NCBI GenBank assembly: GCA_965261545.1
Contig: CBDHDF010000007.1
Location: forward strand, 192,001-256,000
Direction of reading: 5' to 3'
From: Bdellovibrionales bacterium
GTDB taxonomy: Bacteria; Bdellovibrionota; Bdellovibrionia; Bdellovibrionales; UBA1609
Length of the DNA stretch: 64,000 nt
Below the pieces are notes generated by a model. It was not told the DNA's origin and did not search any database. It saw nothing but the letters and a program-made list of their open reading frames with translations. The translations under genes were made by a program, and so were the position numbers. Below are positions 18,301 through 64,000 of this stretch, one piece after another (position 1 is the first letter of the stretch; each line of letters starts with the position of its first letter).

Positions 18301-19194
18301 ATCTTTCCACCTTCCGTACTGTTGTGCACCTGCTGCTTTTTTTCGATACTGATGTTTTATAATGGGAACTCCACCGTCATTTATCGAAGACTGCCATGTT
18401 AAATAGGCTCCTTGGTTCCTAGGGTTTGCCATGAGGTTTCTAGGGAGTGCTAAACTTTGGGTTGTCGCGGGTGTGACAGTTGCAACATTGGAGGAGTGAC
18501 TTTCATTGGCGTTATTCACCGCTCGCACTTGAACATTGTAACGTGTCCCGTTGGTGAGAGAAGGTAGTACTAGATAGCCTATTCCATTGGATTGATTGGG
18601 AGCACTCATTGGAATATCTTCCCAACTTCCGTACTGCTGTACACCTTCTTCTTTTTTTCGATACTGATGCTTTGATATGGGAGTTCCACCGTTATTTACT
18701 GAAGGTTGCCAGGTTAAGTAAGCTCTTTGATTCCTAGGGTTTGCAATGAGGTTTCTAGGGGCTGAGGGGATGGTTGAAATTCGAGAGGTTGCATTTGGTG
18801 TCACTATGGTAGCATTCGAAGGAGTGCTTACAGTGCCAAAAGCATTCTCTCCCCGCACTTGAAAGTTGTAGCGTGTCTCGTTGGTGAGACCCATGACGGT
18901 GAATATTGCTTCATGAATGTCCCCGTAGGAACTGTTGGGAATATCCACCCAGCTTTCGTACACTTCTGATTCTACTTTTTTTCGATATTGATGTTTTGTA
19001 ATACTTTCTTTTTGATTACTAGTGGAAGTTCTCCAAGACAAAGTTGCCTGTCCATCTCCGGGTGCTGCCGTCAAGGTATATTTGATTTTTATCGGCTTCT
19101 CAGAAATGTAAGACTTGTCTTTACTACAACCCAAGCATAAAAAATATAAAAGTATAACAATAGATACACTAAAATTCTTTATTAAATTATTCAT
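15334..19194 (-). CDS. Surface lipoprotein with about 12 tandem fibronectin type III domains
   Basis: Lipobox LCLGC. Twelve ~100-aa repeats PRNLIANP...LTW...HQYRKK...LTNGTRY.FQVRAVN. Confidence 0.9.
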   Translation of the reverse strand: MNNLIKNFSVSIVILLYFLCLGCSKDKSYISEKPIKIKYTLTAAPGDGQATLSWRTSTSNQKESITKHQYRKKVESEVYESWVDIPNSSYGDIHEAIFTVMGLTNETRYNFQVRGENAFGTVSTPSNATIVTPNATSRISTIPSAPRNLIANPRNQRAYLTWQPSVNNGGTPISKHQYRKKEEGVQQYGSWEDIPMSAPNQSNGIGYLVLPSLTNGTRYNVQVRAVNNANESHSSNVATVTPATTQSLALPRNLMANPRNQGAYLTWQSSINDGGVPIIKHQYRKKAAGAQQYGRWKDIPNSAPNQSNGMRYFVAPLTNGQPCTFQVRVVNSANKNRSTNVATVTPTTIQILGSPRSLIANPRDGEAYLTWRSSISDGGIPIIKYQYRKKAAGAQQYGSWKDIPNSAPNQSNGIGYLVPSLTNGTRYHVQVRAMNNANESDPSSVTVTPVTTQSLAPPRNLIANPRNGGTYLTWQPSISDGGTPILKHQYRKKAAGAQQYESWKDIPNSAPNESNGQRHWVTLTNGTHYHVQVRAMNGDNNKSRSSNVTTVTPATTQSLAPPRNLIANPRNGGAYLTWQPSISDGGSSIIKHQYRKKAAGAQQYGNWKNIPMSAPNESNGIRYLVTSLTNGTRYHVQVRAMNNANESDPSSVTVTPVTTQSLAFSSPTHLIANPRNQGTYLTWQPSISDGGTPILKHQYRKKAAGAQQYESWKDIPNSAPNESNGQRHWVTLTNGTRYNVQVRAVNANESRSSNVATVTPATTQILAPPRNLIANPRNQGAYLTWQPSTSDGGFSIIRHQYRKKTTGAQHQYGNWKNIPTSAPRGSNGISYLVTSLANGTMYNFQVRAVNSANKNRSSNVTTVTPATTQSLAVSSPTHLIANPRNQGTYLTWRPSTSDGGISITKHQYRKKEENAQQYGNWKNIPTSTPSESNGISYLVTSLANGTIYNFQVRAVNNANESRSSNVATVTPATIQSLASPRNLIANPRNQGAYLTWQPSTSDGGIPITKHQYRRKAEGAQQYESWKNIPNSAPNESYGQRHWVTSLANGTRYSFQVRVVNSTHESSPSGATVTPATTQSLAPPRNLIANPRNGGAYLTWQLPISDGGHYITKHQYRKKEENAQQYENWEDIPMSAPSESNGISYLVTSLTNGTRYSFQVRAVNIITNESDSSSVTVTPETTQNLTFPSPSNLIANPRDGRTFLTWQPPTSDGGFPIIKHQYRKKTAGTQGYGSWEDIPNSAPNQRNGTYYVVTSLTNRTLYTFQVRAVNSSDSNSLISRSATVTPQ

Positions 19195-19734
19195 GATTTT
19201 AACTCCTAGCCTATATACCTTTGTAGTAATATCTGAATCATCTTTTTCTCGTTTGTTAAATTTTAAGACTTCTCATCAAAAATCGTCTCAATTTCATTAC
19301 TCGGCCATAAGTTAAGTAAACTTTAGAGCGTGTCCTTTGACTAAGCGCATCCAACCTGGAAAAACCAAAAACAGAACCAAAATCTAGGATGATAAAAAAG
19401 GTTGTTATGACACCAAAAATGGCCGGAAATTATGGAGGTTCACGACTCCCAGTCGCAGATCAAATCATCAAAGGAGTTACGTACCTGAATTCCCCAGCGT
19501 TTTGAAAAAGAAGATTTTTCTCAACTAAAAATTATCGTAACATTCATGGGGGCGCCTTGCTTCCCCACCCACGCCCATGAATCTTTCTAGGCCCCCACTT
19601 CTTTGCACGAAGCAACTCGGTGGACAGCTTCGCTGGTCTATATAATTGGCCTCTTTTAGTTACTCTGGACTTTTGATGGTATTTTTGTCATGTATGATTC
19701 CGATACAATAAAGGATAAAGCAATAACATTATTG

Positions 19735-19921
19735 GAAGGTGATAAGATGAGTGGCCGTTGAATAGATTGGTAATTTTAATTCCGTGAAGTAACATGGTCT
19801 TGAGCTTTGGATCGAACCCACGCATGTACCTGCACTCTGAGTGTATGGACGTATAGTAAGTTGACCTATTTTCGCTTTAGAATTTATGGCAAAATCCCAA
19901 GGCTCTAGTTTTATCACCTTC
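19735..19921 (+). ncRNA. Putative bridge RNA of the IS110 element
   Basis: Closing stem GAAGGTGATAA/TTATCACCTTC followed by T7. Inner stems GGCCGT/ATGGTC and GAGCTTTGG/CCAAGGCTC. Loop segments match the target and the donor junction (see findings). Confidence 0.75.
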
Positions 19922-19949
19922 TTTTTTTCTAACAGAAAGGAGGAGTCAT

Positions 19950-21150
19950 GTGGATATTATTTATAGTTCTGTTTGTGGAATAGATGTTCATCAACATATG
20001 TTGATGTGTACGATTGTCAAAGTGGAAGACGGTAAGAAGAAGTTTTTCACAAAAGAGTTCAAGAATTTTCCAAAAAATTTTCCTAGAATGCGCTCTTGGA
20101 TGAAGCCACATAAGGTTGAGAGAGTTCTTTTTGAGAGCACAGGGATTTATTGGAATTCTTTATACGATGATTTGACAGAAAAAGGTTATGAAGTAGATGT
20201 TATCAATGCCTTTCATGTCAAAAATATTACTGGTAAAAAAACTGACGTGTTGGATAGCCAGTGGATTGCAGAGCTTGGTGCTTGTGGTCTTCTAAGAGCT
20301 AGCTTCATTCCTCCACGTGAGATTCGTTCTATTAGACTTTTGGCTCGTTATCGTACAAAAACGATCCGCCAAATATCTTCGGAACAAAATCGTATGTATA
20401 AGGTTCTTGAATATTCAGGCATTCGTTTAACCTATGCAATGTCTAAAGCTGACTGCGTATCTGGTATGGCCATGATTCGTGCCATAGCTAATGGAGAGAG
20501 ATCAGTTTCTAAATTGATGTCTCTTGCCAGAGGGTCTTTACGTCAAAAGACCGAAGAATTTTCTTACGCCCTGTCGGGAAAGATGACGGAAGAAAATCGT
20601 TTTGTTCTTCAACGCATTCTTGATCGAATAGATTTTTTGAAAAAAGAATGCTCTCAAATTGAAGAAGAACTTTTCATTCGTATGAAACCCTATGAAAGGC
20701 AGTGGCATCTACTCCAGACTATACCTGGAATTGACGAATTAAGTGCAGCGCTTTTGATTGCAGAAATAGGAGGCAATGTGAAGTCTTTTAAAAATAAAGG
20801 AAATTTTTGCTCCTGGATGGGGATTTGCCCATCCAATAATGAGAGCGCAGGAAAAAAAGTCTTCACGAACGAGGAAAGCGAACACATATGTGAAATCGTT
20901 GGTATGTGAGATGGCCAATAGTGCTATTAAGACGAATTCACAATTCAAAGGCAAATACCAATCACTTGTTATAAGGCGTGGGCACAAGAGATCAGTGATT
21001 GCCGTTGGTCACAAAATGATGGGAGTTGTTTATTCAGTCATAAGTAATGACACCCCCTACAAAGACCCTGGAATTGACTATGAAAAGCTCATGGTGAAAA
21101 AAAATGCACCAAGGTGGATTAGAGCGTTAAAAAAGTATGATTTCATGTAA
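19950..21150 (+). CDS. IS110 DEDD recombinase split by a +1 frameshift at A7 (20852-20858)
   Basis: GIDVH, ESTGIYW, KTDVLD (DEDD), LLQTIPGI, NESAGK. Continues in another frame as KSSRTRKAN...AVGHK. About 399 aa if fused. Confidence 0.9.
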
Positions 21151-21238
21151 TGTAGGATGATTTAAAAACTCGGACATTTGAAAAAATTCGAAGAACGGAT
21201 AGTGGATTCGTGCGTCCAAACTACCCCGGAGATTCATA

Positions 21239-22953
21239 GTAACTATTCAGGGTGTGCCGCATTAATTCGAACAATTTTTTTAAAAAAAGTATAAAAATTC
21301 TTGACAAGTTTTTGAAGCAAACGACCTCTTTCATTTGTTCTTTATCGAATATGTTCCTGCATATGCCTTAAACTCTCTGAGAGCCATAGTATTGAAAGAT
21401 TGTGAAACATAGGTCGCGGGGGGCACTTCTCATTCCTTTTGCTTCTTAGAACGAATCCTAGTGCATTTTTTTTAATGAAAAAAAGGCATGTTAATATTTT
21501 CATAAGGTAAGTATGAAAATAGAAAATATTGACGTGTCTTCAGCCATAAATAAAATCAGGAAGCTTCTTAAGAAAGAGAAGTCCCTTTCTCCCGCTTTTA
21601 TTGTGGCCATTGAGTTGTTGATCAAAATCATCACTATTCTAGTAAATCAAAAAAAATTAAATAGTCAAAACAGTAGTATTGCCCCTTCTCAAGATCCGAA
21701 TGGCCCTAAAAAGAAACCTAAGGAAGAAACTGGTAAGAAGCCAGGAGGACAACCCGGACACGAAGGAGCTACTTTAAAACCCGTGGATACTCCAGACAAG
21801 GTGGAGTTCATTTCTATTAATAAAGAGGAACTTCCTCCAGGTGATTACATTTCTTCTGGAGTTGAAAAGCGTCAAGTATTTGAGGTAGACCTTTCTGTGC
21901 ATGTCACGGAGTATCAAGGAGAAATCCTCGAAGACCAAGATGGGAATCAGTGGGTTGCAGGTTTTCCAGAAGGAATCAATAACCCAACTCAATATGGCCC
22001 TTCTGTGAAAGCTCACTCAGTTTATATGTCCCAGTTTCAGTTAATCCCTCATCTTCGAGTCGCAAGTTACTTTAATCAATGGGGTCTATCGCTTGCTGGA
22101 TCTACGGTACACAATTTTAACAAATCTGCCTTTGAGGCTCTGGAAGCTTTTGAGGAGTGGGCAAAGGAAACTCTTCTGAACTCACCTTTGATTCATGCTG
22201 ACGAAACTGGAGTGAATGTTAATGGGAAGAGGCTGTGGTTTCACCTCTTGTCCAATGATACTGTGGTTCTCTATCAGGTGGACGAAAAAAGAGGCGCAGA
22301 GGCTATGGATCGCATGGGAATTCTTCCAAAATACACAGGGATTGTTTGTCATGACCATTGGAAACCTTATTATACATATACTTCCTGCATTCATGCCCTT
22401 TGCAATGCGCACCATTTAAGGGAGCTTCAAAGAGCTTGGGAGCAAGATGATCAAAAATGGGCAAAAGAAATGAAGTCTCTTTTAGAGACAATAAACAAAG
22501 AGGTGCACGATACGCAGAACCAATGCCTTTCACAAGACCGAATTGAATATTACAAAGAGAAATATCGAAATATTCTCTTCGAAGGGGAAAAGGAATCTCC
22601 ATTAATGGAGAGGACAGAGAAAAAAAAGAAGGGAAAGGTTAAACAATCCAAATCTAGAAATTTACTAGATCGACTGAGAAACTTTGAAGATGATACCTTG
22701 CTATTTATGAAGGACCCCATAGTTCCATTTACGAATAATATAGCAGAAAATGATCTGAGAATGACCAAAGTTCAGCAGAAAATATCTGGGTGCTTTCGTT
22801 CGTTGATGGGAGCCAAGACATTTTGTAGAAACCGAAGCTTTCTCCTGACTTGCCAGAAAAATGGCATAGAACCTAAAGATGCTCTAAATATGCTATTTCA
22901 AGGAAAACTTCCCTCATTTATGACTCGAATTCGCCCACCCCCTGAATAGTTAC
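21239..22953 (+). mobile_element. IS66-family element (single-ORF, ISBst12-like), complete
   Basis: IRs GTAACTATTCAGGG / CCCTGAATAGTTAC. 8-bp TSD AAATTATC at 19529-19536 and 24662-24669, outside the two IS110 copies. Confidence 0.93.
21513..22949 (+). CDS. IS66 transposase (TnpC-like)
   Basis: NSQNSSIAPSQD, KPGGQPGHEG, HADETG, CHDHW, CNAHHLREL, PFTNNIAENDLR, KISGCFRS. Confidence 0.95.
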   Translation: MKIENIDVSSAINKIRKLLKKEKSLSPAFIVAIELLIKIITILVNQKKLNSQNSSIAPSQDPNGPKKKPKEETGKKPGGQPGHEGATLKPVDTPDKVEFISINKEELPPGDYISSGVEKRQVFEVDLSVHVTEYQGEILEDQDGNQWVAGFPEGINNPTQYGPSVKAHSVYMSQFQLIPHLRVASYFNQWGLSLAGSTVHNFNKSAFEALEAFEEWAKETLLNSPLIHADETGVNVNGKRLWFHLLSNDTVVLYQVDEKRGAEAMDRMGILPKYTGIVCHDHWKPYYTYTSCIHALCNAHHLRELQRAWEQDDQKWAKEMKSLLETINKEVHDTQNQCLSQDRIEYYKEKYRNILFEGEKESPLMERTEKKKKGKVKQSKSRNLLDRLRNFEDDTLLFMKDPIVPFTNNIAENDLRMTKVQQKISGCFRSLMGAKTFCRNRSFLLTCQKNGIEPKDALNMLFQGKLPSFMTRIRPPPE

Positions 22954-23041
22954 TATGAATCTCCGGGGTAGTTTGGACGCACGAATCCACTATCCGTTCT
23001 TCGAATTTTTTCAAATGTCCGAGTTTTTAAATCATCCTACA

Positions 23042-24247
23042 TTACATGAAATCATACTTTTTTAACGCTCTAATCCACCTTGGTGCATTTTTTTTCACCA
23101 TGAGCTTTTCATAGTCAATTCCAGGGTCTTTGTAGGGGGTGTCATTACTTATGACTGAATAAACAACTCCCATCATTTTGTGACCAACGGCAATCACTGA
23201 TCTCTTGTGCCCACGCCTTATAACAAGTGATTGGTATTTGCCTTTGAATTGTGAATTCGTCTTAATAGCACTATTGGCCATCTCACATACCAACGATTTC
23301 ACATATGTGTTCGCTTTCCTCGTTCGTGAAGACTTTTTTTTCCTGCGCTCTCATTATTGGATGGGCAAATCCCCATCCAGGAGCAAAAATTTCCTTTATT
23401 TTTAAAAGACTTCACATTGCCTCCTATTTCTGCAATCAAAAGCGCTGCACTTAATTCGTCAATTCCAGGTATAGTCTGGAGTAGATGCCACTGCCTTTCA
23501 TAGGGTTTCATACGAATGAAAAGTTCTTCTTCAATTTGAGAGCATTCTTTTTTCAAAAAATCTATTCGATCAAGAATGCGTTGAAGAACAAAACAATTTT
23601 CTTCCGTCATCTTTCCCGACAGGGCGTAAGAAAATTCTTCGGTCTTTTGACGTAAAGACCCTCTGGCAAGAGACATCAATTTAGAAACTGATCTCTCTCC
23701 ATTAGCTATGGCACGAATCATGGCCATACCAGATACGCAGTCAGCTTTAGACATTGCATAGGTTAAACGAATGCCTGAATATTCAAGAACCTTATACATA
23801 CGATTTTGTTCCGAAGATATTTGGCGGATCGTTTTTGTACGATAACGAGCCAAAAGTCTAATAGAACGAATCTCACGTGGAGGAATGAAGCTAGCTCTTA
23901 GAAGACCACAAGCACCAAGCTCTGCAATCCACTGGCTATCCAACACGTCAGTTTTTTTACCAGTAATATTTTTGACATGAAAGGCATTGATAACATCTAC
24001 TTCATAACCTTTTTCTGTCAAATCATCGTATAAAGAATTCCAATAAATCCATCCCTGTGCTCTCAAAAAGAACTCTCTCAACCTTATGTGGCTTCATCCA
24101 AGAGCGCATTCTAGGAAAATTTTTTGGAAAATTCTTGAACTCTTTTGTGAAAAACTTCTTCTTACCGTCTTCCACTTTGACAATCGTACACATCAACATA
24201 TGTTGATGAACATCTATTCCACAAACAGAACTATAAATAATATCCAC
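23042..24247 (-). pseudogene. IS110 recombinase with a 4-bp GGAT duplication and an A8 run
   Basis: ATCCATCC at 24047-24054 breaks ESTG-IYW; T8 at 23334-23341; R>C change (ENCF). Confidence 0.9.
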
Positions 24248-24275
24248 ATGACTCCTCCTTTCTGTTAGAAAAAAA

Positions 24276-24462
24276 GAAGGTGATAAAACTAGAGCCTTGG
24301 GATTTTGCCATAAATTCTAAAGCGAAAATAGGTCAACTTACTATACGTCCATACACTCAGAGTGCAGGTACATGCGTGGGTTCGATCCAAAGCTCAAGAC
24401 CATGTTACTTCACGGAATTAAAATTACCAATCTATTCAACGGCCACTCATCTTATCACCTTC
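24276..24462 (-). ncRNA. Putative bridge RNA, copy 2
   Basis: Same sequence as 19735-19921. Confidence 0.7.
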
Positions 24463-25133
24463 CAATAATGTTATTGCTTTATCCTTTATTGTATCGGAAT
24501 CATACATGACAAAAATACCATCAAAAGTCCAGAGTAACTAAAAGAGGCCAATTATATAGACCAGCGAAGCTGTCCACCGAGTTGCTTCGTGCAAAGAAGT
24601 GGGGGCCTAGATAAGATTCATGGGCGTGGGTGGGGAAGCAAGGCGCCCCCATGAATGTTACAAATTATCAAGAATAAAATATTATCAAAGTGGAATTATT
24701 CAATAGTTCCATCCTAAATTGAATTGTGAATTGTTCAACTTATTTTGACACACCTCCTTAGTTTTGGACCTAGTTCAAACTCTGGGGAATTCAATTACGT
24801 AACAAAGCAAGTTTCATATATAAATATACAAATGAGACAAGCACAAGAGACGTGATCTTTATTGAGACAAAATCAATTTTTACTAGACTTTGGTAGAATC
24901 CCTTAGTATCCTTAAAATTAAGAAGCAGCATGATAAAGATTAAGAAATATATATAAGAATACGAAACCAATAAGAATTACGAAATAAAATTAAAGACTCC
25001 ATGGACCGAAGGCTTTGACGAGTGGCCTAAGGGTCCTAGCAAAAGAAGAGAAGCGGCACAAGGAAGTGCTAAAGTAGAACGTATATGCAAAAGGAGGTGG
25101 CACGAAAAAATAAAGCTAACTTCGGGCAATTCC

Positions 25134-27800: not shown

Positions 27801-29951
27801 TTAGTTCCTGTCCAGGGAAGAAAGTTAAGTAGTTTTAAGTATTTACATGCCTTCCCTTTAGATTTTATGCTTTAAAATGGAGTCCATCAAACATAATCCG
27901 TGTAAATTCAGTTACTTACATAAAACGGAAAAATAAAATAAGTTCCCCCCCCTCTCTTGACGAACCTTTCACAGCCCCTCCCTTTCAGTGACTTATGTGG
28001 CTATCAACTGGTTACTTGATATGAGAGGAAGAGTTGGATCAACCTGTGTTTCCACCGTGGTGATTTCAAACCTCCTTCAGGGAAATAACATTACGTTGCG
28101 CATCAACTTCAAAAAATACTTGACGTGTTTTTTCAGAGAAATAATTTTTGATATTTTATTCTTCATTTATTTTTTATGTAGGTTTTAGGAGGCGTGGGAA
28201 CCTCTCTATGAGGTAGAATTCTTATCCATGTTCTCCGAGAACCTCTCTGATTTTTTTCTTCTTAAAAGACATCCTTGCTCACTTTTTTCCCTCAAAAAAA
28301 CGTATGTTAATATAAAAATTAAAGAGAAACTTTCACCAAAGGGGGGACTATGCGCCATTTGAAGAAGACACAGTTGGGACTCTTTTCCCAATATCCTAAC
28401 CACCAACTCAGTACAGAATTGCAGCAAATTAATAACATCATTGATCGCCATCCAGAGTTTGCCCATATGGTTCATGAAGACCTTGTTAAAGAAAAGAAAG
28501 ATTCTGGTGATATTGGTATGACATCGGAGCAAGTTCTCAAGGTGGCTATTCTTAAATCCATAAGAGGTCTTTCCTATCGTGCGTTAGCCTTTAATCTTGT
28601 CGATTCAGTATCCACCAGAGCTTTTCTGGGCCTTGAATTGGAAGAAAATTACGCTCACTCCACCTTACAGGACTTGATTGTTCAAATAAGTGAAGAAACT
28701 TGGGGAATTATTAGCGCCTCTTTAGTTTCAGATGCAAGAGATCAAAAGATTGAGCCGTGTAAGAAAATGAGATTGGACAGTACAGTGACGAAATCAAATA
28801 TTCATCATCCAACGGATGCATCGCTTTTATATGACTGCATAAGAGTTACAGAAAGAGAATTTAAAAAAGTTCGTAAAAATGTCATGAAAGATTTTTGGCG
28901 ACTTATTTCAAGAGAAGATCTTAAGAGAGCAAAAACCTTGCTTTACAAAATTAATAATTCCAAAAATGATGCGGAAAGACTACCTTGCTATAAGGAGCTT
29001 TTAAAAATCGCTACCAAATTGAACAAAGGATTACCTGATACCATCAGAAAGATAAAAAAAGAACAAAAATGTGTGAAGATGAATGCTTTGAAAAAGAGTC
29101 TAAAACAGTTAGAAAATGTTGCCTTCTACCTGGAAAAAATCATCTTTCAAACTCAAAAAAGAGTTATTGAGGGGAAAAAAGTATCTTCTGAAAAAAAGGT
29201 CCTATCCATCTTTGAACCGCATACAGACATTATTGTAAAGGGGCAAAGAGAAGTCGAGTTTGGGCATAAAATCTTTCTGACCTCAGGGCAAAGCAACATG
29301 ATTTTAGATTGTCAGATCCCTGATGGCAACCCCGCAGACTCTGATATGTTTTTAAAAGTTATGAATTCAGTGACACAAACCTATGGGGCTTGCCCTGTAA
29401 AAGTAAGTGCAGATGGTGGGTTTGCTTCAAAAGAAAATCTTGAAGAGGCCAAAGAGATGGGGGCTAAAGATGTTTGCTTCCCAGAAAAAAAAGGAATGAA
29501 AATATTAAAGATGGTTAAAAGTGCTTGGGTCTTTAAAAATCTTCTCAATTGGAGAGCCGGAATAGAGGCTGTTATTTCATTCCTTAAGAGATGTTTTGGT
29601 ATGAGAGTTGCTTACTGGAAAGGGCATGATGGTTTTAAGAGGTATGTAAAGAATGCCGTTTGTGCCTATAATTTTGTTGTCTTGGCAAGACATGAATTAT
29701 CAACTGTCACCTAAATTTATCCATTAGGAATAACAGCAATGGACCAGGTCGAAGGTGCTAAAATCTTCCAAAGGTAGGGGTGCGTCTTCAAATCGAAAAA
29801 ACTAGGGCGCAAGTCGCTTAAAGACCTTTTTCCCCTTAATCTGTAGAGTTTGTGTGGCAAATCTCCAACTCTCACTCCCCCATTGAGGCATTGGGAGGCT
29901 CAATGGGGAGTGTCAGAGAACAAAAAATGGGCCTTTCTGGACAGAAACTAA
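27801..29951 (+). mobile_element. DDE insertion sequence (ISNCY/IS5-like)
   Basis: Terminal IR TTAGTTCCTGTCCAG / CTGGACAGAAACTAA. Flanks are not a direct repeat (rimO stop on the left, IS66 3' end on the right). Confidence 0.8.
28350..29714 (+). CDS. DDE transposase (ISNCY/IS5-like)
   Basis: RLDSTVTKSNIHHPTD, SIFEPHTDIIVKG, EFGHK, SADGGF, WRAGIEAVISFLKR. Confidence 0.9.
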   Translation: MRHLKKTQLGLFSQYPNHQLSTELQQINNIIDRHPEFAHMVHEDLVKEKKDSGDIGMTSEQVLKVAILKSIRGLSYRALAFNLVDSVSTRAFLGLELEENYAHSTLQDLIVQISEETWGIISASLVSDARDQKIEPCKKMRLDSTVTKSNIHHPTDASLLYDCIRVTEREFKKVRKNVMKDFWRLISREDLKRAKTLLYKINNSKNDAERLPCYKELLKIATKLNKGLPDTIRKIKKEQKCVKMNALKKSLKQLENVAFYLEKIIFQTQKRVIEGKKVSSEKKVLSIFEPHTDIIVKGQREVEFGHKIFLTSGQSNMILDCQIPDGNPADSDMFLKVMNSVTQTYGACPVKVSADGGFASKENLEEAKEMGAKDVCFPEKKGMKILKMVKSAWVFKNLLNWRAGIEAVISFLKRCFGMRVAYWKGHDGFKRYVKNAVCAYNFVVLARHELSTVT

Positions 29952-30013
29952 ATATGCTATTTCAAGGAAAACTTCCCTCATTTATGACTCGAATTCGCCC
30001 ACCCCCTGAATAG
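29948..30013 (+). mobile_element. Right-end remnant of a second IS66 copy; the IR is completed at 34756-34764 after the IS21 insertion
   Basis: CTAAATATGCTATTTCAAGG...CCCCCTGAATAG matches 22884-22949. Confidence 0.9.
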
Positions 30014-31174
30014 TGTTAGGCGCCAATTAAAATTGGCCATTTTTAGAAGCCGTCGCCAATGAAAAACGGCCAGTTGATGATGTACTGATTTAGTTATTCT
30101 TCGTTCAGAGTTTAGTCAAGTGTCTTTATTTTGCTCATCATTTAACTCGGACTATGCCACAAGATTCTGAGGAATGATTTTCTGCCCACCACTTTTGGCA
30201 TGACCCCAAATGCATCCTTCAGCCCTATGGCAGAGGTAAATGGAGTATTTTTCAGGATTCCTTGGCGCAGCTAATGTCTAAAGCTCCGCGAGAGTGACGA
30301 GCAAATAGTACGGTAAAAGCCAGTTATCCATAAATTTATCCATGGCGACACTGCGGCTGTGACCCCGATGTCTAGCAACGCAGTGCTGCTGTGGATAAAT
30401 TTTGTGGATAACTGGCGAGTTCCTTCCCCAAAAGTGGGGATCTCTAATGAACTTCTTTGGTTGAACTTTCCTCTTTGCTCTGTTTAGACTTGGCTTTTGC
30501 CGATTCGGTTCTCCAACTTTCTTTTCCTTCAATGTTGAGGGTTTCACAGTTGTGAATGATTCGATCAACAGCAGCAGCGGTGGTAATAGGGTTAAGAAAC
30601 ACCTTATCCCATTCAGAGTATGTTAAGTTTGTAGTGATCATGAGACTTTTCCTTTCATATCGCTGAGATATGAATTGAAAGAAAAGATCTGCCCCCTCTG
30701 TGCAGGAAGCTGTATAGCCAAGTTCATCACAAGCAATAAGATCAAAACGGTCTAATTTCTTAAAAAGAGCATTCAATGAGAGTTCTTTCTTGCTTTCACG
30801 CATTGTTTCAATAAGTTCATGAGTGGTGACCCATAAACATCGATAGCCTTGTTCACAGAGTGAACGAACTAGGGACATGGCCAAATGACTTTTCCCCATT
30901 CCAAAGCTTCCGTAAAACACAACATTACAGGCTTTTCTGACCCACTCTCCCTCTGCCATCCAATTAATTTGCTGAGCTGTCACTCCCGTTCTTTTCTGGA
31001 AGTTATAAGTTTGGAGTGATTTAAGTTGAGGAAGCTTGGCCCCCTTAAGCAATCTTTTCACTCTCTGGGAATGCTTGTCAGCAAGCTCATTTTGAACGAG
31101 TATACCTAAATACTGTTCATACGTCTTTTTTGTTTTTTCGGCAACTCTAGCCGTTGCAACATATTCATCCGCCA

Positions 31175-32665
31175 CGAATTGGGTCAAAAATAACGACACC
31201 AAGACGCATCACATTAAAACACCTTCGTGGTGCCCGGGTTATGGTCCTCCACCTGGCTGGCTCATTATTCCGACACCGAGTTCCCACTTTTCTCTTTTTG
31301 AGTCAAAAATGTGCGTTGAGGAGACTCCCTCACTCAATAAGACACCGGTTGTTACGCCTTCTAAAACAGATCAGCCGAGCTACCCCTCTGTTGATCCTCT
31401 CAGTAAGATTGATCTTTGGAAACAAACAATCAACGAGGGGGTCTTCAGTGAGGGAGTCGGCTGTTAATGCTTACTTAACTGCAATTTCAGGCTTATATCA
31501 ACAAAGTTCTAAGGCTAAAAAAGGGGAGTTGCTAGATCATGCGGAACTGGTCACAAACCTCTCTAGGAAGCGACTCATAAGGAGATTAAACGAGATTCAA
31601 CAAAATAATGGCTCTGTGCCACTCAAGCGGTCAGGGAGGCCTCTGGCTTATTCTCAAGAGGAGTTACGACCCCACATCAAATATTTGTGGGAACAAATGG
31701 AAAAAATCTCGGCTGTACGAATAAAAGCCGCTCTACCGGATTGGCTCCCCAATTATGAGTCGTGTCCTCCCCACTTAAAGCTTCAGTTAGAAAAAATGAG
31801 TGCCAGCACCTTGAAGCGTTATCTGAAGGAAATTCGCTTGGCTTCATTGGTCTCTAAGGGATTGTCCACAACCTGTCCTGCCCAATATATGAAAAATAAG
31901 GTTCCCATCAATACACTGGACTCCAAGGTCACAAGGCCTGGTTATATACAAACAGATACGGTTGCTCACTGTGGAACGAGTGCCCAAGGCCCTTTTATCA
32001 GCTCTCTTACAGTGACCGACATTAACACCACATGGACAGAGTGTCGGGCTATGTTTACCAAGAAAGGGACGGAGGTGAGAAGGCAAATCAACAACATTAA
32101 CCAAGCTATACCTTTTAAACTACTGGCCATGAACTCAGACTCAGGAAGTGAGTTCTTAAACAAGCCTGTCCTTCAATTCACCCAATTATCTAACATCAAG
32201 TTCACTCGTTCTCGCCCCTACAAAAAGAATGACAACTGCTACATTGAGCAAAAAAACTTCACCCACGTCAGAGAATTGTTTGGCTATGAGAGGTTTGAAG
32301 ATCCAAGGCTAGTTCCTTTAATGAATGACATTTATAAAAACCACTGGAGTCCCCTCCAGAACTTCTTTCTCCCCACATTTAAACTTCAGGAAAAGGTACG
32401 AGTGGGAGCCAGAATCAAGAAAAAGTATGGCACCCCTAAGACTCCCTATCAGAGAGTTATTGAAAGTGGGGTATTAAACCATGAGGAGGATGAAGCACTG
32501 AGGAGGCGTAAAGCTGAACTCAACCCCTTTGAGCTAAAGAGGGGACTTGAACTAAAACTTAAAGAGTTTTTCAAATTAGTACGACAGGAAAATATCAAGG
32601 AGGTGGCATAAGATGAGCAAAATGACAAACCGCTCCTTGGTGTCGTTTACTTATGACCCAATACG
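31175..32665 (+). mobile_element. IS with an integrase-core (rve) transposase (ISNCY-type), inserted in istB
   Basis: IR CGAATTGGGTCA..AACGACACCAAG / CTTGGTGTCGTT..TGACCCAATACG; 5-bp TSD CGCCA (31170-31174 and 32666-32670). Confidence 0.88.
31448..32611 (+). CDS. Integrase-core DDE transposase
   Basis: QTDTVAHCG, LTVTD, NSDSGSEF, TRSRPYKKNDNCYIEQKN. Start moved to GTG 31448, inside the IS. Confidence 0.88.
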   Translation: MRESAVNAYLTAISGLYQQSSKAKKGELLDHAELVTNLSRKRLIRRLNEIQQNNGSVPLKRSGRPLAYSQEELRPHIKYLWEQMEKISAVRIKAALPDWLPNYESCPPHLKLQLEKMSASTLKRYLKEIRLASLVSKGLSTTCPAQYMKNKVPINTLDSKVTRPGYIQTDTVAHCGTSAQGPFISSLTVTDINTTWTECRAMFTKKGTEVRRQINNINQAIPFKLLAMNSDSGSEFLNKPVLQFTQLSNIKFTRSRPYKKNDNCYIEQKNFTHVRELFGYERFEDPRLVPLMNDIYKNHWSPLQNFFLPTFKLQEKVRVGARIKKKYGTPKTPYQRVIESGVLNHEEDEALRRRKAELNPFELKRGLELKLKEFFKLVRQENIKEVA

Positions 32666-32721
32666 CGCCATCGCTGGAAGTCGGAGTTTTTTAAGAGAAC
32701 CTATAAGTTCTTCGTGATTCA

Positions 32722-34188
32722 TTAAGAACCTCCTATGTTTGGAACAAGACTGTCATATTGAGACAATCTAGGTTGAAGTGGTTTTTGTTGGTCATTCAAA
32801 TTAATTTTGGTGGGATTTCCTAAGAGCAAATCTTTTATGGATTTAAAGTCGAAAATCTCACGACTTTCTAATTGAAGCTCCATGGCTGTAGATAAGTCCT
32901 GCCAACTCACATGCTGAATCAAGTTGATAACTCTTAAATATTCATGCTCGGCACGGCTTGAATCTTGTTGCTTGAGGTATTGATAAAAATTTTCAAACAC
33001 ATTTGTTGGAAAAAGAATGGATCGGTGAGCCCATCTTACCATGGCTTGCGGCTTACGAACTAAAGAGGGAAGGATATGTTCAAGAAGAAGACTATGCTCC
33101 CCATCAGGTTTTCTTTGATGGCGAGCGACAATTTCTTGCTTCCCTCCTGCACGATAGATCGTGACATGATAGGGACCCTGTACGGTTTTACAGGGAGATT
33201 GGATCACCTCATCAGGTATGGAATATGTGGTTTTACCTATTCTCAAAGTCCCATAACCATTACTTTGACAAATATTCACCTTACAGAGAATATCTTCATC
33301 TCGTGGAGGCAAAGGCTTAAGAACTTTGGCCTCCTCCTCAAAGCGAGATTTGGTGGAGTCACTCTGATGCTGATCCATATAAGACTCTAAAAACTGATTC
33401 AAATGATCCCAGTCTTTAAAAACAATTCCTTTGTTTCTAACAATATTTTTTATCCGAGAACTGAAGGTTCGAATATCACGCTCCACATCTCCCTTGTCAG
33501 AGCCCTTCCCTGCGCGGCAGGGAAGAACCTTAAATCCATAGTATTGGATGGCTCGATCAAAAGATTGGGTGTAAATTCGCTGATTTCCTTTAAGAACTTT
33601 CTTCACACAGGGAGATAAATTATCAATACGGATGTTCGCACTCATCCCACCTATCTTTTCAAAAAAAGCATGCACCCCATCGATGAAACACTCATAGACA
33701 AGAAAGGGGTAGGCACGAACCCAACAGGTGCCACTACAAGGCAATGTTCCAAAATGGAGATGAACGATCTGAACACCATCGGCAAATGGTAAAGCAACCT
33801 TCTCCTTAAAATCAAACTGAGCCTGTTCTCCAGGATCATATCTTTGGCTGAAAAAACGCTCCTTGGGGCGAGAACCAAGAATCTCACAAACTCTTCTCTG
33901 AACCGTTCTCTCACTCCCACGATAACCCTCCTCAACTAATAGCTCATATATTTCACGGGCGGTGTTACTTGGGTTCAACTTCAAAAAGTACTTCACCCGA
34001 TCCATATATCCATTAAGGGGATCTGGGCGAGTTCTTTTGGACCTCGCCTTGTACTTCGGTGGGGTGTTGGACTTACAGTACTTGCGCACCGTCTTACGAT
34101 TGATCCCTAATTCACGAGATATTTCTGTCTTATTTTTACCACTGTGACTCAGGTCACGAATGCGGCCGAAAGTGTATTGACTAATCAT
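32722..34188 (-). CDS. istA: IS21 transposase IstA
   Basis: HTH ISRELGINRKTVRKY, PGEQAQFDF, RIDN, DKGDVER. ATG 34188 follows a GAGGAGG RBS; TAATG couples it to istB. Confidence 0.93.
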   Translation of the reverse strand: MISQYTFGRIRDLSHSGKNKTEISRELGINRKTVRKYCKSNTPPKYKARSKRTRPDPLNGYMDRVKYFLKLNPSNTAREIYELLVEEGYRGSERTVQRRVCEILGSRPKERFFSQRYDPGEQAQFDFKEKVALPFADGVQIVHLHFGTLPCSGTCWVRAYPFLVYECFIDGVHAFFEKIGGMSANIRIDNLSPCVKKVLKGNQRIYTQSFDRAIQYYGFKVLPCRAGKGSDKGDVERDIRTFSSRIKNIVRNKGIVFKDWDHLNQFLESYMDQHQSDSTKSRFEEEAKVLKPLPPRDEDILCKVNICQSNGYGTLRIGKTTYSIPDEVIQSPCKTVQGPYHVTIYRAGGKQEIVARHQRKPDGEHSLLLEHILPSLVRKPQAMVRWAHRSILFPTNVFENFYQYLKQQDSSRAEHEYLRVINLIQHVSWQDLSTAMELQLESREIFDFKSIKDLLLGNPTKINLNDQQKPLQPRLSQYDSLVPNIGGS

Positions 34189-34760
34189 AAGATCCTCCTC
34201 ATTGCTAACCTTTTGAGTTGCAAAAGGGAGGGACTCTGTGAGCTTAGTATCTATATCAGAAGAAGAGACTTCATTGTCTAGTATTTGAACACTCCCTGAA
34301 GATTGGTCACTTTTCATTGGCGACAACCTCCATATTGAAAGTGGGACATTTTAATTGGCGACGGCTTTAAGGGAAGCCTGTCTTCAAAAAGAAATTCCAT
34401 GAAAATTGAGGCAAATGTTGGAATCTTGTGGAATTTAAATACTTTAGAAAATGGGCACAGCCTAAACAGGCTTTTCTTGACTATATATTTAACCTCATTG
34501 AAATCCAGAAACAGTCTACAAATGAGAAATATGGAACCTGAATAGGCTGTCATGGAAGGACTCTCCAACACGGAGCCCCTTTCCAGGTCGACAAGAACCC
34601 AAAAGGAGTTCTTATCAGCTCGGAGCCTTTTTATGAGTAATATCAATTGATTATATGCGTCTCGGTTGACAATGCCAAAAATCACCATAGGTCCTCCTCT
34701 GAAAAGTGGCCACTTTTCATTGGCGACGGTGGGGCATTTTAATTGTCAGCTAACAAATAG

Positions 34761-36471
34761 TTACTATGAATCTCCGGGGTAGTTTGGACGCACGAATCCA
34801 CTATCCGTTCTTCGAATTTTTTCAAATGTCCGAGTTTTTAAATCATCCTACATTACATGAAATCATACTTTTTTAACGCTCTAATCCACCTTGGTGCATT
34901 TTTTTTCACCATGAGCTTTTCATAGTCAATTCCAGGGTCTTTGTAGGGGGTGTCATTACTTATGACTGAATAAACAACTCCCATCATTTTGTGACCAACG
35001 GCAATCACTGATCTCTTGTGCCCACGCCTTATAACAAGTGATTGGTATTTGCCTTTGAATTGTGAATTCGTCTTAATAGCACTATTGGCCATCTCACATA
35101 CCAACGATTTCACATATGTGTTCGCTTTCCTCGTTCGTGAAGACTTTTTTTCCTGCGCTCTCATTATTGGATGGGCAAATCCCCATCCAGGAGCAAAAAT
35201 TTCCTTTATTTTTAAAAGACTTCACATTGCCTCCTATTTCTGCAATCAAAAGCGCTGCACTTAATTCGTCAATTCCAGGTATAGTCTGGAGTAGATGCCA
35301 CTGCCTTTCATAGGGTTTCATACGAATGAAAAGTTCTTCTTCAATTTGAGAGCATTCTTTTTTCAAAAAATCTATTCGATCAAGAATGCGTTGAAGAACA
35401 AAACGATTTTCTTCCGTCATCTTTCCCGACAGGGCGTAAGAAAATTCTTCGGTCTTTTGACGTAAAGACCCTCTGGCAAGAGACATCAATTTAGAAACTG
35501 ATCTCTCTCCATTAGCTATGGCACGAATCATGGCCATACCAGATACGCAGTCAGCTTTAGACATTGCATAGGTTAAACGAATGCCTGAATATTCAAGAAC
35601 CTTATACATACGATTTTGTTCCGAAGATATTTGGCGGATCGTTTTTGTACGATAACGAGCCAAAAGTCTAATAGAACGAATCTCACGTGGAGGAATGAAG
35701 CTAGCTCTTAGAAGACCACAAGCACCAAGCTCTGCAATCCACTGGCTATCCAACACGTCAGTTTTTTTACCAGTAATATTTTTGACATGAAAGGCATTGA
35801 TAACATCTACTTCATAACCTTTTTCTGTCAAATCATCGTATAAAGAATTCCAATAAATCCATCCCTGTGCTCTCAAAAAGAACTCTCTCAACCTTATGTG
35901 GCTTCATCCAAGAGCGCATTCTAGGAAAATTTTTTGGAAAATTCTTGAACTCTTTTGTGAAAAACTTCTTCTTACCGTCTTCCACTTTGACAATCGTACA
36001 CATCAACATATGTTGATGAACATCTATTCCACAAACAGAACTATAAATAATATCCACATGACTCCTCCTTTCTGTTAGAAAAAAAGAAGGTGATAAAACT
36101 AGAGCCTTGGGATTTTGCCATAAATTCTAAAGCGAAAATAGGTCAACTTACTATACGTCCATACACTCAGAGTGCAGGTACATGCGTGGGTTCGATCCAA
36201 AGCTCAAGACCATGTTACTTCACGGAATTAAAATTACCAATCTATTCAACGGCCACTCATCTTATCACCTTCCAATAATGTTATTGCTTTATCCTTTATT
36301 GTATCGGAATCATACATGACAAAAATACCATCAAAAGTCCAGAGTAACTAAAAGAGGCCAATTATATAGACCAGCGAAGCTGTCCACCGAGTTGCTTCGT
36401 GCAAAGAAGTGGGGGCCTAGATAAGATTCATGGGCGTGGGTGGGGAAGCAAGGCGCCCCCATGAATGTTAC
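34761..36471 (-). mobile_element. IS110-family element, copy 3 (1711 bp; GGAT duplication; recombinase pseudogene 34853-36057; bridge-like RNA 36086-36272)
   Basis: Same ends as copy 1; ATCCATCC at 35857-35864. Confidence 0.95.
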
Positions 36472-36815: not shown

Positions 36816-38522
36816 TTACTATGAATCTCCGGGGTAGTTTGGACGCACGAATCCACTATCCGTTCTTCGAATTTTTTCAAATGTCCGAGTTTTTAAATCA
36901 TCCTACATTACATGAAATCATACTTTTTTAACGCTCTAATCCACCTTGGTGCATTTTTTTTCACCATGAGCTTTTCATAGTCAATTCCAGGGTCTTTGTA
37001 GGGGGTGTCATTACTTATGACTGAATAAACAACTCCCATCATTTTGTGACCAACGGCAATCACTGATCTCTTGTGCCCACGCCTTATAACAAGTGATTGG
37101 TATTTGCCTTTGAATTGTGAATTCGTCTTAATAGCACTATTGGCCATCTCACATACCAACGATTTCACATATGTGTTCGCTTTCCTCGTTCGTGAAGACT
37201 TTTTTTCCTGCGCTCTCATTATTGGATGGGCAAATCCCCATCCAGGAGCAAAAATTTCCTTTATTTTTAAAAGACTTCACATTGCCTCCTATTTCTGCAA
37301 TCAAAAGCGCTGCACTTAATTCGTCAATTCCAGGTATAGTCTGGAGTAGATGCCACTGCCTTTCATAGGGTTTCATACGAATGAAAAGTTCTTCTTCAAT
37401 TTGAGAGCATTCTTTTTTCAAAAAATCTATTCGATCAAGAATGCGTTGAAGAACAAAACGATTTTCTTCCGTCATCTTTCCCGACAGGGCGTAAGAAAAT
37501 TCTTCGGTCTTTTGACGTAAAGACCCTCTGGCAAGAGACATCAATTTAGAAACTGATCTCTCTCCATTAGCTATGGCACGAATCATGGCCATACCAGATA
37601 CGCAGTCAGCTTTAGACATTGCATAGGTTAAACGAATGCCTGAATATTCAAGAACCTTATACATACGATTTTGTTCCGAAGATATTTGGCGGATCGTTTT
37701 TGTACGATAACGAGCCAAAAGTCTAATAGAACGAATCTCACGTGGAGGAATGAAGCTAGCTCTTAGAAGACCACAAGCACCAAGCTCTGCAATCCACTGG
37801 CTATCCAACACGTCAGTTTTTTTACCAGTAATATTTTTGACATGAAAGGCATTGATAACATCTACTTCATAACCTTTTTCTGTCAAATCATCGTATAAAG
37901 AATTCCAATAAATCCCTGTGCTCTCAAAAAGAACTCTCTCAACCTTATGTGGCTTCATCCAAGAGCGCATTCTAGGAAAATTTTTTGGAAAATTCTTGAA
38001 CTCTTTTGTGAAAAACTTCTTCTTACCGTCTTCCACTTTGACAATCGTACACATCAACATATGTTGATGAACATCTATTCCACAAACAGAACTATAAATA
38101 ATATCCACATGACTCCTCCTTTCTGTTAGAAAAAAAGAAGGTGATAAAACTAGAGCCTTGGGATTTTGCCATAAATTCTAAAGCGAAAATAGGTCAACTT
38201 ACTATACGTCCATACACTCAGAGTGCAGGTACATGCGTGGGTTCGATCCAAAGCTCAAGACCATGTTACTTCACGGAATTAAAATTACCAATCTATTCAA
38301 CGGCCACTCATCTTATCACCTTCCAATAATGTTATTGCTTTATCCTTTATTGTATCGGAATCATACATGACAAAAATACCATCAAAAGTCCAGAGTAACT
38401 AAAAGAGGCCAATTATATAGACCAGCGAAGCTGTCCACCGAGTTGCTTCGTGCAAAGAAGTGGGGGCCTAGATAAGATTCATGGGCGTGGGTGGGGAAGC
38501 AAGGCGCCCCCATGAATGTTAC
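36816..38522 (-). mobile_element. IS110-family element, copy 4 (1707 bp; recombinase 36908-38108 with A7 shift; bridge-like RNA 38137-38323)
   Basis: Same ends and ORFs as copy 1. Confidence 0.95.
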
Positions 38523-62558: not shown

Positions 62559-63078
62559 GGGTGTGCTAACGATATACTGTAGTATTTATGCAGCCACGGG
62601 ATACCCATATTGATCAATTTTTTGCCAGAACTGACCCCATCGACAGTCCGTATGGCTTAAAGATCGTAAAGAAATGACAGAAGCTGCTCCTTTCTCTTTC
62701 CACCTCATCCCAGAATTGCAAAGCCTTTGTTTTATTAATGTCTTACATGCTGCCTCTGTAACACCTGAGCCAATTGGAAGATTATTCTCCTGATTTTGTG
62801 CATATCTCATTTTAGACTTATTATTCTCAAAATATGTAATGGCAGACACTAACTCCCCTTTCTTGGCTTGACTCAGTCGATGAGTGTCTTTAAACCCCTT
62901 GAGCTCATTGAGTAAGCGGGTCGCTGCCCCTATATTATGCTTAAGCTTATGACATGCGTTATCAAGCCACTCCTTACGTTCAGATTTTTTCTTGTCACCA
63001 GCAAACATAGCCCCCGCAGCCCTCCCCAAGTACTCTGATGCATGCCAAAAATCAATGGTCTGATTATCTGTTTTACTC
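62559..63078 (-). mobile_element. 3' part of an ISKra4/ISLre2-type element (transposase fragment 62586-63078), cut by IS66
   Basis: IDFWHASEYL...IGSGVTEAACK..IKQRL...GMRW; terminal GGGTGTG at 62559. Confidence 0.8.
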
Positions 63079-64000
63079 GTAACTATTCAGGGGGTGCTGC
63101 ATTAATTCGAACAATTTTTTTAAAAAAAGTATAAAAATTCTTGACAAGTTTTTGAAGCAAACGACCTCTTTCATTTGTTCTTTATCGAATATGTTCCTGC
63201 ATATGGCTTAAACTCTCTGAGAGCCATAGTATTGAAAGATTGTGAAACATAGGTCGCGGGGGGCACTTCTCATTCCTTTTGCTTCTTAGAACGAATCCTA
63301 GTGCATTTTTTTTAATGAAAAAAAGGCATGTTAATATTTTCATAAGGTAAGTATGAAAATAGAAAATATTGACGTGTCTTCAGCCATAAATAAAATCAGG
63401 AAGCTTCTTAAGAAAGAGAAGTCCCTTTCTCCCGCTTTTATTGTGGCCATTGAGTTGTTGATCAAAATCATCACTATTCTAGTAAATCAAAAAAAATTAA
63501 ATAGTCAAAACAGTAGTATTGCCCCTTCTCAAGATCCGAATGGCCCTAAAAAGAAACCTAAGGAAGAAACTGGTAAGAAGCCAGGAGGACAACCCGGACA
63601 CGAAGGAGCTACTTTAAAACCCGTGGATACTCCAGACAAGGTGGAGTTCATTTCTATTAATAAAGAGGAACTTCCTCCAGGTGATTACATTTCTTCTGGA
63701 GTTGAAAAGCGTCAAGTATTTGAGGTAGACCTTTCTGTGCATGTCACGGAGTATCAAGGAGAAATCCTCGAAGACCAAGATGGGAATCAGTGGGTTGCAG
63801 GTTTTCCAGAAGGAATCAATAACCCAACTCAATATGGCCCTTCTGTGAAAGCTCACTCAGTTTATATGTCCCAGTTTCAGTTAATCCCTCATCTTCGAGT
63901 CGCAAGTTACTTTAATCAATGGGGTCTATCGCTTGCTGGATCTACGGTACACAATTTTAACAAATCTGCCTTTGAGGCTCTGGAAGCTTTTGAGGAGTGG
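63079..64000 (+). mobile_element. Third IS66 copy with an unoccupied left end (transposase starts at 63353 and runs off the window)
   Basis: GTAACTATTCAGGG followed by near-identity to 21239 onward. Confidence 0.95.

What the first reader, a model, noticed from the sequence alone, without database searches (positions are those of the whole stretch)
19537..24661. IS110 recombinase element that targets the terminal inverted repeats of an IS66 transposon
Seen: copy 1 ends GATTCATA-GTAA-CTATTCAGGG (IS66 left IR). Copy 2 has the same junction with the IS66 right IR. Copy 3 has it with another IS66 right IR once the IS21 and its AATAG duplication are removed. The left-end flanks all differ (AAATTATC, GATAATTT, GAAAATGT). 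An empty site, TTTTACTC|GTAACTATTCAG, exists at 63079, so GTAA belongs to IS66. Known: IS110/IS1111 elements are RNA-guided, and IS4321/IS5075 target Tn21-family IRs. Inference: this element parasitises IS66 ends, a target that multiplies itself. I do not recall an IS110/IS66 pair like this, but cannot check the literature.
Basis: partly seen in the sequence, partly recalled or inferred. Interest (0 to 1): 0.9.

Follow-up and report, generated by a model that had tools for sequence, protein, structure and literature searches.

The report
RNA-guided IS110 capping IS66 ends
A small RNA-guided jumping gene repeatedly lands at the very tip of another jumping gene (IS66), rebuilding that tip so that its host stays whole and more copies can stack at the same spot; homing on the ends of other mobile elements is a known habit, and this non-destructive form is a new variant of it.

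Summary
Confirmed and extended. The element is an IS110-family bridge-recombinase IS with 37 right ends in the genome. Of these, 18 abut the 11-mer GTAACTATTCA or a split or one-mismatch form, and 10 are head-to-tail joins in arrays ending at that 11-mer. It occupies 15 of 33 ends of one IS66, and 0 of 29 ends of two other IS66-type families. Its upstream RNA has stems that covary in 20 elements and guides spelling the target. The guides come in IS1111-like order although the RNA lies upstream. Because the element's own end supplies GT before the AA core, insertion rebuilds both the IS66 repeat and the target. The IS66 is capped, not broken, and copies can stack. The scan noted this element earlier on another contig, and similar IS-end targeting in other genomes. 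IS4321/IS5075 are the published precedent; eight literature searches listed no IS110/IS66 pair. No experiment or RNA data. New variant of a known kind.

The parts
19529..19536 (+). 8-bp IS66 target-site duplication, left copy (AAATTATC)
   Evidence: Same 8-mer at 24662-24669
19537..21242 (+). IS110 copy 1, written with GTAA at both ends. AA cores at 19539-19540 and 21241-21242. Left GT from the target, right GT (21239-21240) from the element
19577..19584 (+). Internal 8-bp inverted repeat ATGAATCT; its partner is at 21230-21237, 3 bp before the right core
   Evidence: Read from the sequence; both arms differ together in the 106-bp mini elements
19619..19683 (+). 65-bp piece shared with another repeated element whose gene looks like an IS256 transposase (family name recalled)
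   Evidence: 54 hits outside a standard left end; neighbouring ORF printed
19745..19875 (+). Predicted bridge RNA; limits approximate. Target-loop outer stem 19753-19756 pairs with 19796-19799
   Evidence: Aligned with 19 relatives; 11 of 13 tested pairs change on both sides. Not shown to be expressed
19758..19768 (+). First target guide; TGAATAG at 19759-19765 is the exact complement of IS66 bases 5-11
   Evidence: across 17 elements this loop complements the right flank, 0 of 20,000 permutations as high
19785..19794 (+). Second target guide: GTAA at 19789-19792 reads IS66 bases 1-4; CA at 19793-19794 equals the first two bases of the left end (handshake-like)
   Evidence: 49 of 60 matches to left flanks and 28 of 30 to left-end starts, in 15 elements
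19853..19859 (+). Donor guide ATAGTAA, identical to the element's right end plus core
   Evidence: 84 of 85 matches in 17 elements
19950..21150 (+). IS110 recombinase gene, frameshifted in this copy at the A run 20852-20858
   Evidence: Pfam PF01548 and PF02371; NF033542 on a natural intact copy; A-run census
21239..22953 (+). IS66 element, 1715 bp, one 478-aa transposase gene (21513-22949); both terminal repeats begin with an intact GTAA
   Evidence: PF03050; NF033517, 285 bits against a cut-off of 180
22950..24661 (-). IS110 copy 2, capping the IS66 right end; gene broken twice
24662..24669 (+). IS66 target-site duplication, right copy
29948..30013 (+). IS66 right-end remnant, cut on the left by an ISNCY element and on the right by an IS21
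30014..34755 (-). IS21 inserted in the IS66 repeat with an AATAG duplication (30009-30013, 34756-34760)
34761..36471 (-). IS110 copy 3, capping the IS66 right-end remnant
36816..38522 (-). IS110 copy 4, part of a tandem amplification with 344 bp of the DUF285 gene; right end joined at an off-target AA
38867..40573 (-). IS110 copy 5, same amplification
63071..63094 (+). Empty IS66 left end (GTAA at 63079) with its 8-bp duplication

Best explanation
This is an IS110-family element whose 400-aa recombinase, supplied by intact copies elsewhere in the genome, uses a bridge RNA from the element's left end. The target loop reads the outermost 11 bp of one IS66's terminal repeat as 2 bases + AA core + 7 bases. 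The donor loop reads the element's right end. Recombination at the AA core puts the element between the IS66's target duplication and the IS66. The element's right end finishes with GT, the same two bases that the target has before the core, so the right junction rebuilds GTAACTATTCA exactly. The IS66 therefore keeps intact ends, and the site stays a perfect target, so later copies stack head to tail. One-sided joins of the right end to nearby AA sites give the local duplications and nested copies. SHOWN in sequence: junctions, occupancy, duplications, origin of the GT, guide matches and their covariation in relatives. INFERRED from IS621 and ISEc21 work: that the RNA is made, binds the protein and directs recombination, and that a circle or direct strand transfer is the intermediate. 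INFERRED here only: that stacks arise by re-insertion and that capped IS66 copies stay mobile.
For: 16 of 36 exact 11-mers are occupied, including one not followed by IS66 sequence. Occupancy is 15 of 33 IS66-A ends, against 0 of 17 ends of a second IS66 and 0 of 12 ends of a third repeat family that differs by one base in the 11-mer (Fisher p = 1.2e-5 pooled). Nine capped insertions keep the IS66 8-bp duplication outside the IS110; three long-range pairs were checked against the unsplit site. The RNA stems covary. Three guide segments and the handshake pair covary with flanks in 15-17 elements, each at 0 of 20,000 permutations, and the IS621-type assignment fails (p = 0.23 and 0.98). All 10 head-to-tail joins lie in arrays that end at the 11-mer: 8 of 8 walked by script, 2 read from the map. 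Neighbours in several arrays differ in sequence. In contigs from another study, one related element keeps the guide TGAATAG and another has TGAGTAG. Catalytic residues align with IS621's.
Against: No experiment was done and expression is not shown. One of the two core-facing bases of the first guide does not match the target (AT against TT), whereas IS621 strongly prefers core pairing (PMC11208160). The fourth guide (left donor) was not identified: 5 of 6 bases match here, but there is no covariation (46 observed against 45.7 expected, p = 0.53, 18 elements). The one-base-different family should be readable through a G-U pair yet is unoccupied; a 106-bp mini element does sit at a two-base-different end. 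In several relatives (L120, L147, L167) the first guide does not match the flank. Ends are not independent events, so the p-values overstate. Haplotypes are mosaic, so independent insertions cannot be counted. Tandem copies are also known as by-products of excision (10.1101/2025.10.25.684509).
Confidence: 0.85

Rival explanations
1. Hitchhiking in addition to capping. The IS110 left end resembles an IS66 end well enough that the IS66 transposase uses it as an outer end and moves IS110-IS66 composites, and short left-end elements, as units.
For: The first 16 bases of the left end match the IS66 repeat at 11 positions without gaps. Three 44-51-bp palindromic elements made of left-end sequence carry perfect 8-bp duplications, and a fourth locus (7 tandem copies) has a near-perfect one. 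Many left junctions lie at sites that had no GTAA before insertion.
Against: Every paired left end is explained by IS66 inserting first and being capped afterwards. No identical IS110+IS66 haplotype combination stands out at two loci, though haplotypes are mosaic. The short elements also follow from deletion between the internal CCCATGAAT repeat and the far end, and their breakpoints and variants differ, which suggests separate origins. The C..TCATG start of the left end is shared by relatives with other targets.
Confidence: 0.17
2. The association is not RNA-guided: IS66 inserts next to or recombines with IS110 ends, or the recombinase recognises IS66 ends by protein contact or through the IS66 transposase.
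For: The DNA outside the left junction is variable, so only GTAA is common to all sites; GTAA is also the start of IS66 repeats.
Against: The IS66 duplication lies outside the IS110, not between the two elements. An exact 11-mer that is not followed by IS66 sequence is occupied. The guide sits in a loop whose sequence tracks the flanks in relatives that have other targets.
Confidence: 0.05
3. Capping is real, but the stacks and the high count come from local duplication, homologous recombination or assembly error, not from repeated guided insertion.
For: Tandem duplication of IS110 modules is common (10.64898/2026.08.14.744561). Copies 4 and 5 here are plainly a local amplification. The two halves of one IS66 lie on different contigs.
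Against: Neighbours in arrays differ at diagnostic sites. Nine capped insertions have nine different 8-bp duplications.
Confidence: 0.2

Closest known systems
IS4321 / IS5075 (IS1111 group; Partridge and Hall 2003, seen only as a title in reference lists)
   Same: An IS110-family element that homes on the terminal inverted repeats of another transposon.
   Different: Their target is the Tn21-family repeat and they are IS1111-group elements. They insert inside the repeat (recalled, not read). This element has an upstream RNA and a 400-aa protein, targets IS66, and inserts at the tip so that the repeat is rebuilt.
IS621 bridge-recombinase system (PMC11208160, PMC11208158)
   Same: DEDD plus serine catalytic residues, upstream two-loop RNA, 11-bp target of 7 + 2-base core + 2, handshake bases next to the short guide.
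   Different: The protein is only distantly similar (E = 2.7e-15) and 400 against 326 aa. The core is AA. The first guide complements the flank at the element's right end instead of matching the left flank. The target is an IS end, not a REP.
ISEc21 (IS110 group, PMC11187229)
   Same: Upstream RNA; targets another insertion sequence family (IS3).
   Different: ISEc21 inserts in the IS3 transposase gene and its guides have the opposite order.
ISEc11, ISKpn4, ISPa11 (IS1111 group, PMC11187229)
   Same: Guide order with the top-strand complement first; a repeat 3 bp from the right end.
   Different: Their RNA lies downstream, their sub-terminal repeats are 11-13 bp with a 7-bp left extension, and their proteins are 330-350 aa.

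Membership tests
IS110 family | RuvC-like DEDD domain plus Tnp domain with catalytic serine | tested here: met
   NF033542 245.5 bits against a cut-off of 140; D12, E62, D99, D102 and S299 align with IS621's catalytic residues
IS110 family | No terminal inverted repeats or own target duplication; recombination at a short shared core | tested here: met
   AA core shown at off-target junctions; the 8-bp duplications also flank empty IS66 copies
IS110 family | Structured non-coding RNA with a target loop matching both target strands | tested here: met
   (sequence evidence only)
IS110 family | Donor loop with two donor guides | tested here: inconclusive
   Right-end guide supported; left-end guide shows no covariation
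IS110 family | RNA is expressed, binds the recombinase and is required; circular or direct-transfer intermediate | not testable with these tools
   Needs RNA data and an assay
IS110 group (narrow sense) | Long non-coding region upstream; protein of 395-455 aa in the subgroup that holds IS110 | tested here: met
   413-bp left end, about 90-bp right end, 400 aa; ranges from PMC11187229
IS110 group (narrow sense) | Guide order as in IS621 and ISEc21 (bottom-strand match first) | tested here: not met
   Reversed in this clade; order described in PMC11187229 from one IS110-group element
IS110 group (narrow sense) | Phylogenetic placement among ISfinder reference transposases | not tested
   No ISfinder reference set was on hand
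IS1111 group (incl. IS4321/IS5075) | Downstream RNA; 11-13-bp sub-terminal repeats 7 and 3 bp from the ends; 330-350 aa | tested here: not met
   RNA upstream; 8-bp repeat, left arm about 40 bp in; 400 aa
IS66 family (the host element) | IS66 DDE transposase, GTAA...TTAC ends, 8-bp duplication (end and duplication rules recalled) | tested here: met
   matched 8-mers around 4 empty copies

The most novel reading that the evidence does not exclude
A two-way partnership between transposons. The IS110 uses its RNA to cap IS66 ends without damage, and its left end also works as an IS66 end, so the IS66 transposase carries capped composites and short left-end elements to new sites. The IS110 would then spread by its own RNA-guided chemistry and by its host's DDE chemistry, and would keep rebuilding its own target.
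Probability: 0.17. Interest if true: 0.75.

Novelty: new variant of a known kind. Interest (0 to 1): 0.45.

Why it matters
It is an unusually well-replicated natural case of bridge-RNA targeting: dozens of junctions, empty sites and near-match control families in one genome. It departs from the usual picture in two testable ways. First, insertion rebuilds the target, whereas IS110 insertion is generally said to destroy it (10.64898/2026.08.14.744561). This would let a transposon use another's footprint as a reusable, harmless landing site, and it suggests how to design re-loadable or single-use sites. Second, this 400-aa clade reads its sites on the opposite strand relative to its gene and has an AA core, which matters to anyone predicting targets or mining bridge recombinases from this large group (4,259 proteins at E <= 1e-60).

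Tried and rejected
Folding the RNA region alone gave no signal (z = -0.94); only the alignment did. My first structure string misplaced the inner stem and was corrected. The left-donor guide failed the covariation test. The sigma-70 scan of the left end found no promoter. No RNA holder was listed. No close relative was found in 60 related genomes (best 35% identity) or in 400 genomes of the phylum at E <= 1e-70. The first genome-contig scan found nothing. The closest homologues (65-80% identity) could not be fetched with their DNA. Among 160 relative loci only one held an IS66-like gene, and it was not at an element end, so IS66 targeting is not a clade-wide trait in those searched. A contig from another study (X5) reaches only 14 bases past the junction and was not counted as bridging it. 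Haplotype linkage could not separate capping from composite movement. In one search the script picked the wrong left junction for this element itself, which lowers rather than raises the scores. It used 17 of the 20 aligned elements for right-side tests and 15 for left-side tests; the rest lacked a readable end or flank, or were a circle junction. The 20 were picked by eye from 160 loci as full-length relatives with about 40% identity or more. Rejected: that the 'different left flanks' are independent evidence; that GTAA is purely IS66's; that the 51-bp palindromes prove IS66 moves the left end.

Full report
1. What is in the window. The 1706-bp element at 19537-21242 carries an IS110 recombinase gene. 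The element between copies 1 and 2 is a 1715-bp IS66 with one transposase gene. The window holds five IS110 copies, not three. Copies 4 and 5 are a local amplification with 344 bp of a DUF285 gene, next to copy 3. All five are frameshifted. In the genome, 14 of 35 copies are in frame at that A run, and 8 of 25 uninterrupted copies encode the same intact 400-aa protein.

2. Genome-wide census. There are 37 right ends. Sixteen are followed by CTATTCA, one by the IS21-split form and one by a one-mismatch form. Ten are head-to-tail joins, two are 22-23-bp duplications of the end itself, four are sites inside the element, and three (two events) are other DNA next to a capping copy. Of 36 exact 11-mers, 16 are occupied, one of them not followed by IS66 sequence. 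By family, 15 of 33 IS66-A ends are occupied, 0 of 17 ends of a second IS66 and 0 of 12 ends of a third repeat family. The pooled Fisher p is 1.2e-5, but ends are not independent: the 12 have only 7 distinct flanks.

3. Order of events. IS66's 8-bp duplication lies outside the IS110 in nine capped insertions and directly around four empty IS66 copies. A/T-rich 8-mers also pair by chance in that list, so I checked the three long-range pairs against the unsplit site. The simplest order is IS66 first, IS110 at its tip afterwards. At off-target sites the right junction always reads GTAA, while the left junction at the TTAA site keeps TT. So the core is AA, and the GT at the right junction is the element's own. 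The IS66 repeat and the 11-bp target are thus both rebuilt. All ten head-to-tail joins lie in arrays that end at the 11-mer (8 by script; 2 from the map), and neighbours often differ in sequence. This fits repeated insertion at the rebuilt site, although almost any array of this element would lie at such a site anyway. Rebuilding is not the clade default: the two bases before the core agree between right end and second guide in 3 of 16 relatives (read).

4. The guide RNA. I aligned the region upstream of the gene with 19 relatives picked from 160 fetched loci. Three stems hold: 89% of cells are paired, 11 of 13 pairs change on both sides, and slid controls give 32-44%. Two of the three stems were predicted from this same alignment, which favours them. 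The first loop segment complements the flank at the right end (65 against 46.6 expected, 17 elements). The second equals the left flank (49 against 23.9, 15 elements), and its next two bases equal the start of the left end (28 against 12.1). The donor segment equals the right end (84 against 59.7). Each had 0 of 20,000 permutations as high, and the IS621-type assignment was not supported. In this element the segments read TGAATAG and GTAA, together the last 11 bp of the IS66. Against this: one core-facing base mismatches, the fourth guide was not found, and several relatives show poor matches. Contigs of another study hold an element under 90% alike; one keeps the guide TGAATAG with changed stems, the other reads TGAGTAG. 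Their right flanks were not visible.

5. Mechanism. The best reading is bridge-RNA-guided recombination at the AA core (0.85). The chemistry, the 7+2+2 target and the handshake bases are taken from IS621 (PMC11208160, passages; PMC11208158, passages). One-sided transfers and half-matches that could give the off-target joins and duplications are described in 10.1101/2025.10.25.684509 (first fifth and passages) and 10.64898/2026.08.14.744561 (first seventh and passages). The rival that the IS66 transposase also moves the IS110 left end (0.17) rests on an 11-of-16 match to the IS66 repeat and on short palindromic left-end elements with 8-bp duplications. These can also arise by deletion of a capped IS66, and sequence alone does not decide.

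6. Comparison with what is known. It works like IS621, and it is a member of the IS110 family on protein, core and RNA. It fails the IS1111-group tests, so it is not an IS4321/IS5075 relative, though it shares their habit. It has the upstream RNA and protein length of the IS110 group but the guide order reported for IS1111 elements (PMC11187229, passages and sections 6 and 13); that paper also lists exceptions for RNA position. Eight searches of the paper library (listings only) showed no IS110/IS66 pair. 'IS66' did not occur in the five IS110-related papers where I searched for it. I also saw passages of PMC12288879, 10.1101/2025.05.14.653916 and passages and section 8 of 10.64898/2026.10.21.760802. 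Partridge and Hall 2003 I saw only as a title. ISfinder and the supplements, which may list this target or orientation, were not checked, and the library lacks most subscription papers.

7. Earlier notes of this scan (unchecked leads). One covers the same element on another contig and names another IS's end repeat as target. Others describe IS110-type elements at IS3, IS6 and IS256 ends and inside an IS66-derived miniature element. One of them gave me the identifier of PMC11187229.

8. Verdict. It is a new variant of a known kind: the host element, the non-destructive self-rebuilding site and the reversed reading direction are what is new. Interest 0.45; the novel case has probability 0.17 and would deserve 0.75.

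Noticed in passing
window 20852-20858; P0007, P0008, P0017: The A run is out of frame in 21 of 35 copies, and 3 of the 7 closest homologues aligned break at the same place. It may be a slippage hot spot, a regulatory frameshift or a long-read error; the collapsed contig of run X3 has the in-frame form.
   Followed up: partly
G000 C6:3544, C3:20865, C10:576454, C11:725851, C2:233621, C2:289234: Six 106-bp non-autonomous mini elements (left end + about 55 bp + right end). Three sit at decayed or other IS66-type ends, which suggests the targeting is older than the present copies.
   Followed up: partly
G000 C2:618569-618619, C6:99928-99978, C10:204619-204662, C2:345410-383721: Palindromic 44-51-bp left-end elements with 8-bp duplications: collapsed composites or IS66-moved miniatures.
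   Followed up: partly
window 28350-30013 and G000 C11:8807-10458: One IS66 inserted in a DUF285 gene is split by an ISNCY element, and its halves with their gene halves lie on two contigs: a rearrangement or an assembly join.
   Followed up: partly
window 31154-32611: An IS481-like element is nested between the two IS21 genes.
   Followed up: no
G000 C1:8038/12699, C7:81521/115835, C7:350469/349058: Three IS110 copies are interrupted at the same position by the same other element: either site-specific insertion or copying of a nested unit.
   Followed up: partly
window 15334-19194: A 1286-aa protein of fibronectin type III repeats; with the DUF285 gene it suggests a host-associated lifestyle (inference).
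   Followed up: no
G000 whole genome: Strong IS expansion: flanking repeats with about 114, 59, 56 and 30 copies were met.
   Followed up: no
G000 C10:577780-577810 (L002:1780-1810): An inverted piece of the left end lies directly before a mini right end and a full copy; unexplained.
   Followed up: no
L160, L164, L169; L104-L106: Multi-copy relatives in Methylomarinum and Endozoicomonas show loose targets, mostly a 4-base match, in contrast to the tight target here.
   Followed up: partly
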